Assembly (NCBI GenBank): GCA_019241735.1
Contig: JAFAWN010000114.1
Location: 1 to 26,487, forward strand
Source of the DNA: Terriglobales bacterium
GTDB lineage: Bacteria > Acidobacteriota > Terriglobia > Terriglobales > Acidobacteriaceae
Direction of reading: 5' to 3'
DNA length: 26,487 bases
Both the position numbers and the translations under genes were made by a program. Every line of letters starts with the position of its first letter. Within the stretch, counting starts at the first letter, position 1. Of this stretch, positions 2,870 through 8,643 are shown one piece after another. The notes under the pieces were generated by a model. It searched no databases, was not told the origin of the DNA, and saw nothing but the letters and a program-made list of their open reading frames with translations.

Positions 2870-3475
2870 TCACCGCCTCCCGGGTTTCTTCTTTGAGGCA
2901 CTCCGCGCTGCCGCCGGCCCCCGCCGAAGTTTCCCGTCGTCCTTTTTACTCGCTCTCTGGCGCTCGCCGCCTGCTTGCGCCGTCCGCGCCGCCTCGGCGT
3001 TGATTCCCCCCTCAGCCAGCGACGACAGTTTCTCGTCTGCGGCTTTTTCTTCGTCCAGCGTTTCCTGCAAAAGCTCCGCCGCCTCCGCGTGCCCCATCGT
3101 CTGAGCCCATGCGATTAAAGAGCCGTAGGCAGCCATTTCGTAGTGCTCGGCGCGCTGACCCGCGGCAATCAGGCATGCATCAAGCACCGTCTCTTCGATG
3201 TCCTCTTCGAGAATACTCTTGCCTTCCTCGATGATGCCGGCGATTCCGTCGCAGTGTTTCCCGCGTGGTTTTTCATCCAGCGATGCAAAGACCTGCTCCA
3301 GGCGTCTTATCTGTCCCTCAGTCTCCGCGAGATGGTCTTCAAAAGCAGTTCGAAGCTCGTCCGAAGCTGCCGCGCGGGCCATTTTCGGAAGCGCTTTGGT
3401 CAGCTGTTTTTCTGCGTCATAGGCATCGCGCAGCTCGTCAATGAAGACCTCATGAAATGATTTTGGCTCCGGCAT
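2870..3475 (-). CDS. yciF: Ferritin-like domain protein, YciE/YciF (DUF892) family, with basic C-terminal tail
   Basis: Shows DELRDAYDAEKQL, HLAET, AAGQRAEHYEMAAYG and TLDEEKAAD diiron-type motifs. AAGGA RBS upstream; 31 bp downstream of katE. Confidence 0.92.
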   Translation of the reverse strand: MPEPKSFHEVFIDELRDAYDAEKQLTKALPKMARAAASDELRTAFEDHLAETEGQIRRLEQVFASLDEKPRGKHCDGIAGIIEEGKSILEEDIEETVLDACLIAAGQRAEHYEMAAYGSLIAWAQTMGHAEAAELLQETLDEEKAADEKLSSLAEGGINAEAARTAQAGGERQRASKKDDGKLRRGPAAARSASKKKPGRR

Positions 3476-3506
3476 TATCCTGTCCTTTCGTGTCTAAGGT
3501 TTGAAA

Positions 3507-5888
3507 TTACACCCGCGGCGGATCGGTCTCCCGGGCAAAATGCCGGTGCGCTGCCAGTGCTGCGATAAATCTTTCGAAACCGGAGTGACCCCCCATTATG
3601 ATTCCGGGATCGGCCTTGCCGCCGGGAAGCGCTGCGGCTATACCCGCCCGGTCGAGCAACGACCCTCCGGATCCCATTACCAGGATCGGCTTGCAATGCC
3701 GGTACTGGTCCTTGAGGAATTCCAGACTGCGTCCATCCGCAGCCAGACCCTCAGCTCCATCACCATCCGGAAGCACCACGCCATCGAAGAGTACAGACGG
3801 AAGCGCTTCAAGCGTGCCATCGATTTCCACGAAGGCCTCGCCCTGCCCTGAGACGCGCCCGAGCCGCGAGCTTATGAATCTGGGCACCGCACCGGCGGCG
3901 GTGAGCCGGTCAGCCAGGCCCAGCAGGCCTTCGATATCAGCGCCGTCCGCAACCAGCATAGCCACCCTGCGTCCAGCGATGCCTCCGTCGCCGGGCCTGG
4001 CGAAAAGAGACAGCGCTTTTGACACCGTTACTTCCGGCTTGACCTTTTTCGTTAACACTTTCGGCATCGGTTCCGGAAGTTCAGTCAGGCCAAGACCTTC
4101 AGCAACCGCCTCGGCCAGCTCAGGCGCTACATTCATCAGCCCGGACACCATGCGTACTCTGATCGCGGGCGTCTGCACCCGTGAAAGCTCGAAACGAAAT
4201 GCATTGACGATGTGTTTCTTTTCAACTTCGGTTTGGCTGTTCCAGAAAAGCGTTGCCTGGCTATAGTGGTCGGCGAAGCGCTCTCCCTTGCCGCGAACCT
4301 TATCGCCGGCGTCTTCTGCCGGCCCCGCATACGAACGGAAGCCCGCTGCGCCCGCCTGAAACGGACAGCCGCCGGCAAGTGAATTGGGCTCATACGAGAC
4401 GCGGCCACGATTAATTGCCTGACGGTGCATACCGTCACGCTGATTGTTGTGCGCCTGCGCCACCGGAGCGTTAATCGGAATTTCGTGAAAGTTCGGGCCG
4501 CCCAGGCGCGAGATCTGTGTATCCACATACGAGTGAATGCGGCCGGCAAGCAGGGGATCGTTTGTGAAATCCAGTCCCGGCACTATGTGGGCGGTACAGA
4601 AAGCCACCTGCTCGGTTTCTGCGAAAAAATTATCGGGGTTGCGGTTGAGCACCATTCTGCCCACCGGGACCAGGGGTACCAGTTCCTCGGGCACGATTTT
4701 TGTGGCATCCAGCACGTCGAAGCTGAATTTTTCGGCGTCTTCTTCGGTAAAAATCTGCAGGGCGAGCTCCCATTCGGGATAGGCGCCCGCCTCGATTGCT
4801 TCCCATAAGTCACGCCGGTGATAATCCGGATCAGCGCCTGAAATCTTGACCGCTTCGTCCCATACCAGCGAATGCGTTCCTGCTTTCGGGGACCAGTGGA
4901 ATTTGACGAAACGGGATTCCCCCTCGGCGTTTACCAGGCGGAATGTATGGACCCCGAAACCCTGCATCATCCGGTAGCTGCGCGGGATTCCGCGATCAGA
5001 CATCGCCCACATCAACATGGCGGTCGATTCCGGCATGAGGGAGACGAAATCCCAGAACGTGTCATGAGCAGTGGCCGCCTGGGGCATGGCGAAATGCGGC
5101 TCCGGTTTCGCAGCATGAACCAGGTCAGGAAACTTCATCGCGTCCTGAATAAAAAAGATGGGGATATTGTTGCCTACCAGGTCCCAGTTTCCCTCGTCGG
5201 TGTAGAACTTCACCGCGAAACCGCGCACGTCGCGGGCGGTATCGGCCGACCCGCGCTCGCCCACGACCGTGGAAAACCGGGCGAAAACCGGGGTGCGCTT
5301 GCCGGCTTCCGAGAAAATCGATGCGCGTGTGAGTTCGGTGAGCGGCTTGTAACATTCAAAATATCCATGCGCCGCCGAGCCCCGGGCATGCACGATCCGC
5401 TCGGGGATACGCTCGTGATCGAAATGTGTGATCTTTTCTCGAAGAATGAAGTCTTCGAGCAGGGTGGGGCCGCGTAGGCCTGCCTTCAGCGAGTTCTGAT
5501 TGTCAGCGACCGGAACCCCGAGGTTGGTAGTCAAAGTGCGACCGGTCGAATCCACCCTCACGCGATCCAGAGGCGCAATGGTTTTGTTGTTGCCGATCGG
5601 CGGCGCGCCGCTGCCCACTTTTTCAGAGGCGTTGGCCTCAGAGACGGTACTGGCGCCCACTATTGGATCAGTAGGCCTTTCAGTCTTGCCTTGTTCCGCT
5701 TCGCCTCCGAATTCGGACGGCTTGTTTTCGTTGAATGCGAACCGCGCTGCCAGTTCCTGGCTGGCGGTGAATTTGTCCTGAAGCGCGCTGCCCTCGGCGC
5801 CCGAAGGGACGGTTGGGCCGCTCACCGTGGATCGGGTGGGCGCCTCTTCCGACCCGGATTTCTTTCTAGGGGGATTAGAGCCTGGCAT
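3507..5888 (-). CDS. katE: Large-subunit heme catalase HPII with C-terminal DJ-1/PfpI-like domain
   Basis: Shows [15 protein letters not shown] (distal His), LVGNNIP, proximal heme signature RIHSYVDTQ and C-terminal [10 protein letters not shown]. 793 aa, GGAG RBS. Confidence 0.97.
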
Positions 5889-6071
5889 GATTTCTCCGGA
5901 GAGGATGCGTTAAGAGCGCATGCCTCGCGCCCCTTGGAGGTAATTTTGTTCCATGCCGTTGCTTCCGCTGGCGTGCTTTGGCGCACTTTGTCGTGCGCAA
6001 TCCATAAGTTCTGTGTTTTCCGGGGAAATGGGCCGTACTTCTGCCCAGGGCTTGGAGGGGGTCTCTAAAGT

Positions 6072-7280
6072 CTAGAAAAGTGATAACTGTTTACACCTAC
6101 GTCGTGGACCTGCTGGATGAGTTGCCACAGTCCTGCCGCCCAGCGAATCAGAAATCTTAAGTTCACGCGCGACAGTTGCCTCTAAGTCGGCTCTTGGGGC
6201 CTGAGAATGTTCAATGGCCTGCACAAACCGGTCAAGCCGCCGAAGGCCGTCAATTTTGTCTGTGTTTCCCACCTTGGCTGCCTCTAACGAGCGCCTAAGG
6301 ATTTGTAAAGTCTCGTCGTAAGTTTTGAGCGGTACGGGGAAAGGGTGGCCGTCTTTGCCGCCATGCGCGAAGGAAAAACGTGCAGGATCAGAAAACCGTA
6401 TTGGGGTTCCGTGGATTACCTCGGCAACCAGGGCCAGCGACTGGAGAGTTCTAGGGCCAAGCTTCTCTAATAACAATAACGACGCGAAATCATGAAGCTC
6501 ACGCTCGTACGCCGCCGCCAGGACCGCTCCCAACCGCTGGAGGTCCACATCGGCGGCCCGGACATCATGATGCTTGGGCATTGTCAATTTCCGGATATCA
6601 GCCAGAGTCGCATGGGGATGGTTTCGCACAATATTTAATAAAGCCTGTTGCGCCGGCTGGGCGAAAGCGGAGACCAGGTTCATGATTTCCCCCTGATGCT
6701 CGCCGACGATTCCCGCGTGCGGCTCACTGGTAAAATTTTTCACCGCAGGCGAGTGCCAGTGGTACCGGCGCGCCATTCCGCTGGCGCCATTCATTCCTTG
6801 TTGGACGATCGTCCATTCGCCGTTTGCGGCAAGAATGAAGCCGTGGAGATAAAGTTGGAAGCCATCAGCGATGGCATTGTTATCAACGCGCGCCGCCAGG
6901 CGGCTACAGCGCACCAACGCGTCTCCGTTCAAACCAGTCCCGTCCGCGTACCGCAAAAGCTCGGCCGGAGTCTGGCGGGAGTGGCGTCCGCGGCCACCGC
7001 AGATGTAGATTCCCAGTTCCTGAGTTCGCGGATTCAGCCCTCTTTTGAGGGCTCCCAACACTGAGGTGGTGATGCCGGACGAGTGCCAGTCCATCCCCAT
7101 AACTGAACCGAGTGCCTGAAACCAGAACGGATCAGCAAGACGGGACAGCAGCGCTGACACGCCGTAATGGTGGACAACATTTTCGGCGATTGCGGTGCCG
7201 AGAAGCGTCATCCGGTCCGCTAGCCACTTGGGGACACTGCCCCCATGCAGCGGTAGGTTGGCAATCCCGGATCGTCGCAT
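6072..7280 (-). CDS. DUF763 family protein (402 aa)
   Basis: Family motifs ANLPLHGG, GMDWHSSGITT, VQQGM, RRYHW and FSFAHGGKDGHP. HhH-like LEKLGPRTLQSL. Ends in QLSLF. Confidence 0.9.
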   Translation of the reverse strand: MRRSGIANLPLHGGSVPKWLADRMTLLGTAIAENVVHHYGVSALLSRLADPFWFQALGSVMGMDWHSSGITTSVLGALKRGLNPRTQELGIYICGGRGRHSRQTPAELLRYADGTGLNGDALVRCSRLAARVDNNAIADGFQLYLHGFILAANGEWTIVQQGMNGASGMARRYHWHSPAVKNFTSEPHAGIVGEHQGEIMNLVSAFAQPAQQALLNIVRNHPHATLADIRKLTMPKHHDVRAADVDLQRLGAVLAAAYERELHDFASLLLLEKLGPRTLQSLALVAEVIHGTPIRFSDPARFSFAHGGKDGHPFPVPLKTYDETLQILRRSLEAAKVGNTDKIDGLRRLDRFVQAIEHSQAPRADLEATVARELKISDSLGGRTVATHPAGPRRRCKQLSLF

Positions 7281-7410
7281 TCCAAAATTGTACCGTGCTA
7301 GTCCCCGCCCCGAAGTTTCGACAGCTGACAGCGCCTAACCATTTTTTTCAGGATGTAGGATCGCAGAAGCAATTCCTTAGCCTTACTAGGAATTCGCCAT
7401 TCTCATCCGT

Positions 7411-8643
7411 ATGATAAGGCCGATGAAAACCAGCAGCGACTGCTGTCCGCCTGAGCGCCGTCAGGCTGTACTTACCGAGCGGCAGCGTCTAAAGATGGCC
7501 CGCTCGGCACATTCCTACGTTCGGGGGAGCACGCTTAAGTTTTACGAATGGCTGAGTTCGTCCCTGGCGCGGTCATTGCCACAGGGTCCGCCCGTGTGGA
7601 TTTGCGGCGACTGCCATCTGGGAAACCTCGGCCCGGTCGCCGACGCCAATGGCCGGGTGAAGATTGCTATCAGAGACCTGGACCAGACAGTCATAGGAAA
7701 CCCTGCCCACGACCTGATCCGCCTTGGGCTCTCGCTGGCAACGGCGATCCGCGGATCAGATTTGCCAGGCGTGACCACCGCGCTCATGCTGGAACAGATG
7801 ATAGAGGGATATGAGAGCGCGCTGACCCATCCGGAAAACACCCCAAGAAAGTCTGCCTCGCCCGCATCTGTCCGGCGTGTGCTGAAACGCGCTTTAAAGC
7901 GGCGATGGCGTCATCTGGCTGAAGAGCGGATCGAAGACGTGAGGCCAGAGATTCCGATGGGCAAGCGGTTTTGGCCGGTCACCATCACTGAGAAGAAAGA
8001 AATCGAACGCATTTTCAAGCTGGCGGAAGTGCGCGCGCTCATCACCTCTCTGAAGGATCGCGACCACGGGGACGAGGTCGAAGTGCTGGATGCGGCCTAC
8101 TGGATGAAGGGCTGCAGCTCTCTCGGCCGGCTGCGGTTCGCCATCCTGCTGGGCGTTGGAAAAAAGACGAAAAGCAGCGAAGGCTTTTGCCTGGTCGACA
8201 TCAAGGAGGCCGTTCGAGCAGCCGCCCCGCATTCCGCGAAAGCAAATATGCCCCGGGACCATGCCAAACGTGTCGTCGAAGGTGCGCTAAAACTATCGCC
8301 GTTTCTGGGGCAACGTATGCTCGCGGGACATTTTTTGAACAAACCTGCGGTTATGCGCGAACTGCTCCCCCAAGACCTCAAACTGGAAATGGATCAGCTG
8401 ACCCGCGAGGAAGCGATAGGCGCAGCGCGATTCCTGGCGTCAGTCGTCGGGCAGGCACATGCACAACAAATGGACAAGACTACAAGACAGCAATGGAAGA
8501 CAATCTTGAAGCACAATCGCAGCAAGAAGCTGGACGCCCCGTCATGGCTGTGGACGAGCGTAGTTGAATTAGTTGCCAGCCACGAATCTGCTTATCTGGA
8601 ACATTGTCGTCAGTATGCACTCGCCGGGGAGAAAGCGCGATGA
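7411..8643 (+). CDS. DUF2252 family protein (kinase-like fold)
   Basis: Shows KMARSAHSYVRGS, WICGDCHLGNLG, IRDLDQT and KGCSSLGRLR. An alternative ATG at 7423 has AAGG upstream. Confidence 0.9.
   Translation: MIRPMKTSSDCCPPERRQAVLTERQRLKMARSAHSYVRGSTLKFYEWLSSSLARSLPQGPPVWICGDCHLGNLGPVADANGRVKIAIRDLDQTVIGNPAHDLIRLGLSLATAIRGSDLPGVTTALMLEQMIEGYESALTHPENTPRKSASPASVRRVLKRALKRRWRHLAEERIEDVRPEIPMGKRFWPVTITEKKEIERIFKLAEVRALITSLKDRDHGDEVEVLDAAYWMKGCSSLGRLRFAILLGVGKKTKSSEGFCLVDIKEAVRAAAPHSAKANMPRDHAKRVVEGALKLSPFLGQRMLAGHFLNKPAVMRELLPQDLKLEMDQLTREEAIGAARFLASVVGQAHAQQMDKTTRQQWKTILKHNRSKKLDAPSWLWTSVVELVASHESAYLEHCRQYALAGEKAR

What the first reader, a model, noticed from the sequence alone, without database searches (positions are those of the whole stretch)
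6072..6089. DUF763 ends in a perfect beta-sliding-clamp motif (QLSLF-stop)
Seen: the last five residues are QLSLF (CAG TTA TCA CTT TTC TAG), after a flexible basic linker. The protein also has an HhH-like LEKLGPRTLQSL segment (about 6441-6480) and several His/Asp motifs. Established: QL[S/D]LF is the consensus DnaN clamp-binding motif, often at the C-terminus of replication and repair proteins. Inference: DUF763 is a clamp-recruited DNA-processing enzyme, which would assign a function class to this DUF.
Basis: partly seen in the sequence, partly recalled or inferred. Interest (0 to 1): 0.72.

Follow-up and report, generated by a model that had tools for sequence, protein, structure and literature searches.

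The report
Clamp-docking tail on orphan DUF763 protein
This acidobacterial gene encodes a protein of unknown function and unrecognised fold whose last five residues are the peptide that bacterial repair enzymes use to grip the DNA sliding clamp; the tail is conserved in one bacterial branch of the family, and some relatives sit behind DNA-damage switches, so the branch gets a first testable role in DNA repair.

Summary
The 402-aa ORF at 6072..7280 (-) is a full DUF763/PF05559 protein (E 3e-127) and ends KQLSLF-stop. By composition, 0.0085 ORFs of this genome should end in QL[SD]LF; one does.

The tail is under selection. 114 of 120 close homologues and all 80 species-level relatives keep Q-x-x-L-F at or near the C-terminus, behind a variable Lys/Pro/Arg-rich linker that is modelled as disordered. 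Positions 1, 4 and 5 are fixed, as in known clamp-binding motifs.

The tail is not a family-wide trait. On a tree, all tail-bearers form one bacterial clade with a 60-85 aa C-terminal extension. 120 archaeal homologues and many short bacterial forms lack the extension and have no PIP-like motif.

Independent DNA-damage link: 13 Sphingobacteriaceae/Chitinophagaceae orthologues carry the published Bacteroidetes SOS operator at -14/-15. Four Acidobacteriaceae orthologues carry a direct repeat that also precedes lexA, an imuA-like gene and a radical-SAM gene in two of the same genomes. The window's own copy has no such box.

The core fold has no detectable relative; an HhH-like module is weakly supported. 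Binding and catalysis are untested. The scan found the same thing earlier in another genome (e1-5284384).

The parts
6072..7280 (-). DUF763 (PF05559) gene, long form, 402 aa
   Evidence: ORF list. Pfam E 3e-127. The conserved N-terminal LPLH motif shows that the start at 7280 is right; some gene callers start at M24 instead (P0001; alignment).
6075..6089 (-). C-terminal QLSLF, predicted beta-clamp (DnaN)-binding motif; the stop codon is 6072-6074
   Evidence: Sequence. Q-x-x-L-F is kept in 114/120 close homologues and 80/80 GTDB species loci. The consensus QL[S/D]LF / QxxLF is quoted in PMC12309361.
6090..6122 (-). Variable basic, proline-containing linker (residues 387-397)
   Evidence: pLDDT about 40. 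In relatives this stretch is K/P/R-rich, mostly 10-14 residues long, and has low information content.
6123..6185 (-). Second conserved block of the clade-specific extension (consensus h-I-x-x-E-R-x-x-S-x-x-h-G-G-R/K-T/S-V-F-G/D; here ...ARELKISDSLGGRTVA)
   Evidence: Anchored logo over 78 of 80 loci: E 77/78, S 74/78, GG, R/K, T/S, V 71/78, F 58/78. Its function is unknown.
6402..6662 (-). Helical HhH-like module (residues about 207-293); hairpin segment LEKLGPRTLQSLALVAEVIHG at 6411-6479
   Evidence: VIA-align match to the TEFM N-terminal HhH domain: Z 5.6, 79 residues aligned, rmsd 3.2. Sub-threshold Pfam HHH hits in 10/54 and HHH_5 hits in 5/54 family members, but none for the window protein itself.
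6669..7259 (-). N-terminal alpha/beta core (residues 8-204) holding most invariant residues (H12, Q55, G62, D64-W-H-S-S-G69, G95-G96, D133, Q161, R171-R172)
   Evidence: Alignments A1 and A2. Domain model has pLDDT 91.8 and pTM 0.89. No PDB neighbour reaches Z 5 and there is no Foldseek hit.

Best explanation
The gene encodes a long-form DUF763 protein with three parts: an orphan-fold core with enzyme-like invariant polar residues, an HhH-like helical module, and a clade-specific disordered C-terminal extension that ends in a beta-clamp-binding motif (QLSLF). The most likely mechanism is that the tail inserts into the hydrophobic pocket of DnaN, as the tails of Pol II, Pol IV and PolC do. This would concentrate the protein at clamp-marked DNA (primer-template junctions, stalled forks, repair gaps), where the core with its HhH module acts on DNA as part of a damage or stress response. 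Shown here: the motif, its position, its selective conservation, a single origin of the tail inside the family, a disordered linker, DnaN in the host, and SOS-type operators upstream of orthologues in two phyla. Inferred: physical DnaN binding, DNA as the substrate, and any catalytic activity. In this genome the copy has no LexA-type box. It lies directly upstream of a large catalase and a DUF892 (YciE/YciF-like) gene on the same strand, so here it may instead be expressed with a general or oxidative stress module.
For: (1) Exact consensus motif at the extreme C-terminus; 0.0085 such ORF ends are expected in the genome and 1 is observed. (2) 114/120 homologues at 72-84% identity keep Q[LM]x[LF][FW] in the last 12 residues while the preceding residues vary. 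(3) In 80 species-level loci from Acidobacteriota, Bacteroidota, Planctomycetota, Spirochaetota, Binatota and Pseudomonadota (55-75% identity), 71 keep Q[LM]x[LF][FW] and the other 9 keep Q-x-x-L-F. Q1, L4 and F5 are fixed and position 3 is free, matching the positions reported as critical for clamp binding (PMC12309361). (4) The tail (382-402) is modelled as disordered. (5) On a tree built without the tail columns, all tail-bearers form one clade (local support 99), so the tail arose once and was retained. (6) DnaN is present in the host genome. (7) SOS link in Bacteroidota: an exact CTAA-N5-TTAG lies at -14/-15 from the start in 12 Bacteroidota loci and at -84 in one more (0.57/kb upstream against 0.021/kb locus-wide). 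This is the EMSA-validated operator of the Bacteroidetes LexA-like repressor, with large regulons reported in Sphingobacteriaceae and Chitinophagaceae (PMC8565304). In the Pedobacter kyungheensis genome the same operator variant also precedes an S24 repressor-like gene and a Y-family polymerase. (8) SOS link in Acidobacteriota: the direct repeat TTCGC-N6-TTCGC precedes lexA, recA and imuA-imuB in the window's genome. In two Acidobacteriaceae genomes it precedes lexA and a SplB-like radical-SAM gene, and in Tunturiibacter also an imuA-like gene. It sits at -36 to -47 of DUF763 in four Acidobacteriaceae loci. (9) HhH signal at family level. (10) Parallel case: the only other ORF of the genome ending in a loose form of the motif is a SplB-like radical-SAM protein. 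Its acidobacterial homologues also end in QxxLF-type tails, and two of them carry the LexA-type box.
Against: No binding data exist, and no complex prediction was possible with these tools. The window's own copy has no LexA-type box even with 2 mismatches allowed, and only 4 of 38 acidobacterial loci have one. The window protein itself gives no Pfam HHH hit, its hairpin is degenerate (KLGP rather than G-h-G), and the structural HhH match is modest at Z 5.6. Archaeal and short bacterial family members work without any clamp motif, so the core function does not need a clamp. No gene neighbour is conserved across the 80 loci, so context cannot point to a pathway. The core has no structural or sequence relative, so 'enzyme' rests only on invariant polar residues.
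Confidence: 0.72

Rival explanations
1. The tail does bind DnaN, but the protein is not a DNA-processing enzyme. It would be a non-catalytic regulator or adaptor that occupies clamp pockets during stress, for example to restrain or exchange polymerases or to mark clamps left on DNA.
For: The same motif evidence applies. SOS-controlled clamp competitors are a plausible logic. No catalytic fold was recognised.
Against: The roughly 320-aa core is strongly conserved from archaea to bacteria, with about 15 invariant polar or glycine positions (D64, H66, S67, S68, Q161, R171, R172 and others), which is more typical of an active site than of an adaptor. Tail-less forms exist widely, so the core has a clamp-independent job.
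Confidence: 0.18
2. The conserved C-terminal QxxLF serves another purpose: a docking peptide for a different partner, a degradation tag, or an intramolecular latch. It would resemble the clamp motif only by convergence.
For: Short hydrophobic C-terminal peptides can be degrons or partner motifs. A second conserved block (..E-R-x-x-S-x-x-h-G-G-R-T-V-F..) sits just upstream and has no known meaning.
Against: The match to QL[S/D]LF is exact in 82/120 close homologues, and the tolerated variants (M at position 2, W at position 5, any residue at position 3) are those known for clamp motifs. The tail occurs only in bacteria, which have DnaN, and never in 120 archaeal homologues. SOS co-regulation with Y-family polymerase and imuA-like genes fits clamp biology.
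Confidence: 0.1
3. Chance occurrence of a five-residue string with no function.
For: Short motifs do occur by chance: QL[SD]LF occurs 3 times anywhere in the genome's ORFs against 2 expected.
Against: The expected number at an ORF's very end is 0.0085. The motif is conserved in 80/80 species loci despite a variable linker.
Confidence: 0.01

Closest known systems
Bacterial beta-clamp clients with a C-terminal QL[S/D]LF-type motif (E. coli Pol II and Pol IV; B. subtilis PolC, which ends in QLSLF)
   Same: Identical pentapeptide at the extreme C-terminus after a flexible segment, with Q1, L4 and F5 conserved. Some orthologues are co-regulated with Y-family polymerase and imuA-like genes by SOS repressors.
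   Different: The attached domain is not a polymerase or any recognised repair fold. Clamp binding is only predicted. The motif is restricted to one clade of the family.
Pfam PF05559 / DUF763 (COG1415), an uncharacterised family of Archaea and Bacteria
   Same: Full-length match with all family-invariant residues present.
   Different: The window protein belongs to a bacterial sub-clade with a 60-85 aa C-terminal extension (a conserved GGRTVF block, a basic linker and QxxLF) that the Pfam model does not cover and that archaeal and short bacterial members lack.
SplB-like radical-SAM 'DNA repair photolyase' (COG1533-type), an SOS regulon member in several phyla
   Same: In Acidobacteriota it shows the same two hallmarks as long-form DUF763: a LexA-type box upstream and a disordered C-terminus ending in QxxLF.
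   Different: Unrelated fold and chemistry (radical SAM). It serves here only as a parallel case.
HhH-containing DNA repair enzymes (for example the HhH-GPD glycosylases)
   Same: An HhH-like hairpin followed about 23 residues later by a nearly invariant Asp-Pro and a Gly-rich loop. This resemblance comes from my own knowledge of the HhH-GPD motif and is a lead only.
   Different: No Pfam HhH-GPD hit in any of 54 members at E up to 1. The N-terminal core is alpha/beta and matched no solved structure.

Membership tests
Pfam PF05559 (DUF763) | HMM score above the gathering threshold over the full model | tested here: met
   424.7 bits against a cut-off of 35.5, model positions 1-319 of 319.
Pfam PF05559 (DUF763) | Family-invariant residues present (LPLH, PFWFQ, G-x-DWHSSG, GG-x-G, QQG, ARRYHW, GGKDG-x-P) | tested here: met
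   Alignment A1 of 54 sequences; every invariant column is occupied by the consensus residue in the window protein.
Beta-clamp (DnaN) clients with a QL[S/D]LF / QxxLF motif | Sequence fits the pentapeptide consensus | tested here: met
   QLSLF at residues 398-402; consensus as quoted in PMC12309361.
Beta-clamp (DnaN) clients with a QL[S/D]LF / QxxLF motif | Motif lies in an exposed, flexible terminal or loop segment | tested here: met
   Residues 382-402 have pLDDT below 50 and no secondary structure.
Beta-clamp (DnaN) clients with a QL[S/D]LF / QxxLF motif | Positions 1, 4 and 5 are conserved among orthologues while the flanks vary | tested here: met
   114/120 close homologues and 80/80 species loci, the latter counting 9 variants at position 2.
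Beta-clamp (DnaN) clients with a QL[S/D]LF / QxxLF motif | Host encodes a bacterial beta clamp | tested here: met
   PF00712 match at E 1.9e-26 in a 384-aa ORF at G000:C344.
Beta-clamp (DnaN) clients with a QL[S/D]LF / QxxLF motif | Physical binding in the DnaN hydrophobic pocket | not testable with these tools
   No complex prediction or binding assay was available.
SOS (LexA or LexA-like) regulon | Operator of the lineage's repressor in the promoter of the window's own gene | tested here: not met
   No TTCGC-N6-TTCGC with up to 2 mismatches in 7281-7430.
SOS (LexA or LexA-like) regulon | Operator upstream of orthologues and shared with core SOS genes in the same genomes | tested here: met
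   13 Bacteroidota loci carry CTAA-N5-TTAG, shared with S24 repressor-like and Y-family polymerase genes in Pedobacter. 4 Acidobacteriaceae loci carry TTCGC-N6-TTCGC, shared with lexA and a radical-SAM gene in two of those genomes and with an imuA-like gene in one.
Helix-hairpin-helix DNA-binding motif (PF00633 and relatives) | HMM match or clear structural match of the hairpin module | tested here: inconclusive
   No hit for the window protein. 10/54 relatives hit HHH below threshold, best E 0.0011. Structural match to the TEFM HhH domain at Z 5.6.
HhH-GPD DNA glycosylase superfamily | PF00730 match or an EndoIII-like two-domain helical fold | tested here: inconclusive
   No PF00730 hit among 54 members at E up to 1. 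Not among the listed fold matches.
Archaeal PCNA clients (PIP box) | Q-x-x-[LIMV]-x-x-[aromatic]-[aromatic]-like motif in the C-terminal 25 residues of archaeal DUF763 | tested here: not met
   0 of 120 archaeal homologues. Degenerate or internal PIPs were not examined.

The most novel reading that the evidence does not exclude
The DUF763 core is a DNA-repair or lesion-processing enzyme with a previously unseen fold. It would be widespread in Archaea and scattered in Bacteria. One bacterial clade would have wired it to the replisome by adding a clamp-binding tail and, in some lineages, SOS control. That would define a new repair activity or pathway rather than just another clamp client.
Probability: 0.35. 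Interest if true: 0.8.

Novelty: new member of a known kind. Interest (0 to 1): 0.62.

Why it matters
DUF763/COG1415 is a sizeable family: 3347 cluster representatives at E up to 0.001. It is present in many archaea, including Thermococcus, Sulfolobaceae and Thermoplasmata, and it is patchy in bacteria. The searched literature holds one incidental mention and no structure. A conserved clamp-docking tail plus lineage-specific SOS operators give the first concrete and cheap experiments: peptide-DnaN binding, damage induction and knock-out phenotypes. They also point to DNA as the substrate. If the orphan-fold core proves catalytic, it adds a new activity to prokaryotic genome maintenance. The same logic (LexA box plus QxxLF tail) also flags the SplB-like radical-SAM protein as a clamp client.

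Tried and rejected
- Sequence searches for relatives with known function found nothing. This covers phmmer and profile searches against PDB sequences, NCBIfam, PADLOC and PHROGs, and ESM Atlas features with PF05559 excluded.
- Fold searches of the full model found no convincing neighbour. Foldseek against the PDB gave nothing at E up to 0.001. VIA-align wide gave a best Z of 5.9, from helical alignments only. The Atlas returned only DUF763 itself.
- The high-confidence N-terminal domain model also matched nothing (best Z 4.3 and no Foldseek hit).
- No neighbour beyond a generic SDR in 17 loci recurs across the 80 loci.
- No canonical PIP box occurs in the archaeal tails (0/120).
- The GGA-N5-TCC Bacteroidetes operator is not enriched upstream of DUF763.
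- GTTC-N7-GTTC was not found upstream of the acidobacterial copies.
- The window copy has no LexA-type box.
- The consensus scan found no sigma-70 promoter and no terminator between DUF763 and the catalase gene.
- The literature search for DUF763, COG1415, PF05559 and IPR008482 returned only one incidental mention.
- The main text and held supplements of PMC8565304 do not mention DUF763 or COG1415.

Full report
**Observation**

The window holds a 402-aa ORF at 6072..7280 on the minus strand that ends ...PRRRCKQLSLF-stop. The codons CAG TTA TCA CTT TTC TAG occupy 6089-6072 exactly as reported. The protein is a full-length member of Pfam PF05559 (DUF763): E 3e-127, residues 5-316, the whole 319-position model. 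NCBIfam, PADLOC and PHROGs have nothing for it.

Closest homologues are named Candidatus Sulfotelmatobacter, Terriglobales or Acidobacteriaceae, so the host is an acidobacterium. Its draft genome is 2.6 Mb in 482 contigs and 84% complete.

**Is the motif more than chance?**

In this genome's 5343 stop-to-stop ORFs of at least 120 aa, composition predicts 0.0085 ORFs ending exactly in QL[SD]LF. One does, and it is DUF763.

Conservation matters more than this count.
- Of 120 homologues at 72-84% identity, 82 end exactly in QL[SD]LF and 106 end in Q[LM]x[LF][FW]. 114 have that pattern within the last 12 residues, while the residues just before it vary freely.
- In 80 loci from GTDB species representatives at 55-75% identity, 71 keep Q[LM]x[LF][FW]. 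The other nine keep Q-x-x-L-F with R, G, I or Q at position 2. These loci come from Acidobacteriota, Bacteroidota, Planctomycetota, Spirochaetota including Leptospirales, Binatota and a Rhizomicrobium.
- Q1, L4 and F5 are therefore fixed and position 3 is free (S, K, R, T, D and others). These are the positions reported as critical for clamp binding, and QL[S/D]LF or more generally QxxLF is the stated consensus (PMC12309361).
- The stretch between the motif and the last structured helix is rich in Lys, Pro and Arg, mostly 10-14 residues long, and poorly conserved.
- AlphaFold2 models residues 382-402 with pLDDT below 50.
- The host encodes DnaN.

**How far does the tail reach in the family?**

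A HMMER search of 1.84 billion cluster representatives found 3347 DUF763 proteins. Many are short forms of about 350-375 aa that stop soon after a conserved ...LKRL... helix and have no extension and no motif. Short forms occur in bacteria such as Syntrophorhabdales and Omnitrophota and also within Acidobacteriota (ORFs of 358-372 aa).

A second search seeded with a short form returned 120 homologues. The named ones are all archaeal: Thermococcus, Staphylothermus, Sulfolobaceae, Thermoplasmata, Bathyarchaeia and Methanomethylicia. None has a beta-type motif in its last 15 residues or a PIP-like motif in its last 25.

I built a FastTree tree of 102 sequences on columns that exclude the extension. 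All 42 tail-bearers fall in one clade with local support 99. That clade also holds one sequence that keeps the extension but has lost the motif. The tail is thus a single gain in one bacterial lineage of the family, later spread across phyla and retained.

The family is patchy. It was found in 13 of 151 Acidobacteriota genomes searched, and in only one of 14 control genomes (Sulfolobus acidocaldarius).

The extension also contains a second conserved block upstream of the linker: h-I-x-x-E-R-x-x-S-x-x-h-G-G-R/K-T/S-V-F-G/D. E is present in 77 of 78 loci, S in 74 of 78 and V in 71 of 78. In the window it reads ...ARELKISDSLGGRTVA (6123-6185). Its role is unexplained.

**What is the rest of the protein?**

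The alignment shows about 15 invariant and about 40 nearly invariant positions. They include H12, Q55, G62, D64-W-H-S-S-G69, G95-G96, D133, D139, H146, Q161, R171-R172-Y-H-W175 and G307-G-K-D-G311. This pattern suggests an active site.

The full model has pLDDT 80 and pTM 0.76. A separate model of residues 8-204 has pLDDT 91.8 and pTM 0.89. Neither finds a convincing relative.
- Foldseek against the PDB gives no hit at E up to 0.001.
- VIA-align against 48,161 chains gives a best Z of 5.9 for the full model, through helical alignments only, and 4.3 for the core domain.
- The ESM Atlas returns only DUF763.
- Sequence and profile searches against the PDB are empty.

Residues about 207-293 resemble small HhH domains. 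The best case is the TEFM N-terminal domain: Z 5.6, 79 of 81 residues aligned, rmsd 3.2. Pfam HHH is the only secondary family that recurs in relatives (10 of 54 members, best E 0.0011; HHH_5 in 5 of 54), but the window protein itself does not hit it. The HhH reading is therefore plausible at family level and weak for this protein.

**Independent functional evidence: damage-response operators**

I followed a lead from an earlier report of this scan on another genome (e1-5284384) and tested it myself.

Bacteroidota:
- The exact palindrome CTAA-N5-TTAG lies at -14/-15 from the DUF763 start codon in 12 loci and at -84 in one more. The loci are from Pedobacter, Mucilaginibacter, Arcticibacter, Pararcticibacter, Chitinophaga and Chitinophagaceae.
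- The density is 0.57 per kb upstream against 0.021 per kb over whole loci. GGA-N5-TCC shows no enrichment.
- CTAA-N5-TTAG is the operator of the non-canonical LexA-like repressor of Bacteroidetes, validated by EMSA. Large regulons are reported precisely in Sphingobacteriaceae and Chitinophagaceae (PMC8565304).
- That paper's main text and held supplements do not mention DUF763 or COG1415.
- In the Pedobacter kyungheensis genome the same operator variant also sits beside an S24 repressor-like gene and upstream of a Y-family polymerase.

Acidobacteriota:
- In the window's own genome the direct repeat TTCGC-N6-TTCGC, with an AT-rich spacer, lies between the -35 and -10 boxes of lexA. It also lies upstream of recA, of an imuA-imuB pair and of dnaB. 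It is therefore a strong candidate LexA box.
- The same repeat sits at -36 to -47 of DUF763 in four Acidobacteriaceae loci (L020, L027, L032, L039). The density is 0.70 per kb upstream against 0.05 per kb locus-wide.
- In two of those genomes, Tunturiibacter gelidiferens and strain dw_441, the repeat also precedes lexA and a radical-SAM gene. In Tunturiibacter it also precedes an imuA-like gene.
- The window's own copy has no such box, even with two mismatches allowed.

**Local context**

The window gene is followed on the same strand, after 183 bp and with no predicted terminator, by a large catalase and then a DUF892 (YciE/YciF-like) gene. An 81%-identical relative has DUF763-DUF892-DUF72 in a row, while another close relative has different neighbours. 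No neighbour is conserved across the 80 species loci.

**A parallel case in the same genome**

The only other ORF of the genome that ends in a loose form of the motif is a SplB-like radical-SAM protein ending in SQLALF. By my reading of the tails, at least 13 of 24 acidobacterial homologues end in QLxLF, QMxLF, QxSLF or hexapeptide QLxLxL-type tails. The two homologues preceded by the LexA-type box end in QQRLFA and QQSLFA.

splB is a recognised SOS regulon member (PMC8565304). So in this phylum two unrelated proteins combine a LexA-type box with a disordered QxxLF tail. This supports reading the tail as a clamp hook used by damage-response factors.

**Mechanism and confidence**

My best explanation, at confidence 0.72, is that the QLSLF tail tethers long-form DUF763 to DnaN on DNA, and that the conserved core plus HhH-like module then acts on DNA during damage or stress.
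- Shown here: motif, position, selection, single origin, disorder, host DnaN, and SOS operators in relatives.
- Inferred: physical binding, DNA as the substrate, and catalysis.

Rivals:
- A clamp-binding but non-catalytic regulator (0.18).
- A look-alike peptide with another partner or a degron role (0.10).
- Chance (0.01).

**Comparison and novelty**

The protein works like the known C-terminal clamp-binding clients (Pol II, Pol IV, PolC), but its domain belongs to none of their families. It is a bona fide member of PF05559. It cannot be filed under HhH-GPD glycosylases or any solved fold.

Clamp clients are a known kind and this is a new one. The core may turn out to be something new in its own right (probability about 0.35). 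The scan reached the same reading earlier on other DNA (e1-5284384), so this window is a second, independent instance rather than a first sighting.

No claim here rests on the unpublished genome G024; its locus L129 was skipped.

Noticed in passing
G000:C225:12927-13802 (L081:2928-3803, minus strand); relatives L108-L130, L170, L156: A SplB-like radical-SAM protein ends in SQLALF. By my reading of the tails, at least 13 of 24 acidobacterial homologues end in QLxLF, QMxLF or QLxLxL-type tails. Two Acidobacteriaceae homologues (46-49% identical) are preceded by the TTCGC-N6-TTCGC box and end in QQRLFA and QQSLFA. It is probably a second SOS-controlled clamp client.
   Followed up: partly
G000:C330:4861, C411:4864, C168:1471, C300:4993 (L082, L084, L087, L085): A candidate acidobacterial LexA operator: the direct repeat TTCGC-N6-TTCGC with an AT-rich spacer (period 11). 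It lies upstream of lexA, recA, imuA-imuB and, unexpectedly, dnaB. A full-text search for 'Acidobacteria' with 'LexA-binding motif' returned only one paper, a general survey of transcription factors, which I did not open.
   Followed up: partly
window 6123-6185 (-): A second conserved block in the clade-specific extension (E-R-x-x-S-x-x-h-G-G-R/K-T/S-V-F-G/D), modelled with low confidence. Its function is unknown. It could be a second docking element or a strand that folds back on the core.
   Followed up: partly
window 7281-7292 (-) and upstream regions of L001-L080: A -10-like hexamer (TACAAT here; TAnAAT-like in many acidobacterial loci; the Bacteroidetes TAnnTTTG box in Bacteroidota) lies only 6-12 nt before the start codon. 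DUF763 mRNAs may therefore be leaderless or nearly so in both phyla. The consensus scan found no full sigma-70 promoter.
   Followed up: no
window 2870-7280 (-); L135, L136: DUF763, a large catalase (KatE-type, with a DJ-1/PfpI-like C-terminal domain) and DUF892 lie on one strand. An 81%-identical relative has DUF763-DUF892-DUF72 without the catalase. This hints at a stress module in this lineage in place of LexA control.
   Followed up: partly
L103 (Staphylothermus marinus), L102 (Thermococcus bergensis), L105 (Sulfolobaceae): Archaeal short-form DUF763 genes lie convergent to a herA (DUF87)-rad50-like operon in Staphylothermus and next to an SMC_N/AAA_23 ATPase in Thermococcus. In Sulfolobaceae they lie within a few kb of endonuclease V and a Hel308-like helicase. 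This is suggestive of DNA repair, but the genes are not operonic and only three places were examined.
   Followed up: no
L091:1507-2718 (+) in the Pedobacter kyungheensis genome: A 404-aa ORF with no Pfam match starts right at a CTAA-N5-TTAG operator and is divergent from an S24 repressor-like gene. It may be another unknown SOS regulon member.
   Followed up: no
window 7212-7280 (-): A database protein 100% identical to the window's (P0001, 379 aa) starts at Met24 and drops the conserved N-terminal LPLH segment. The longer start at 7280 is supported by conservation.
   Followed up: yes
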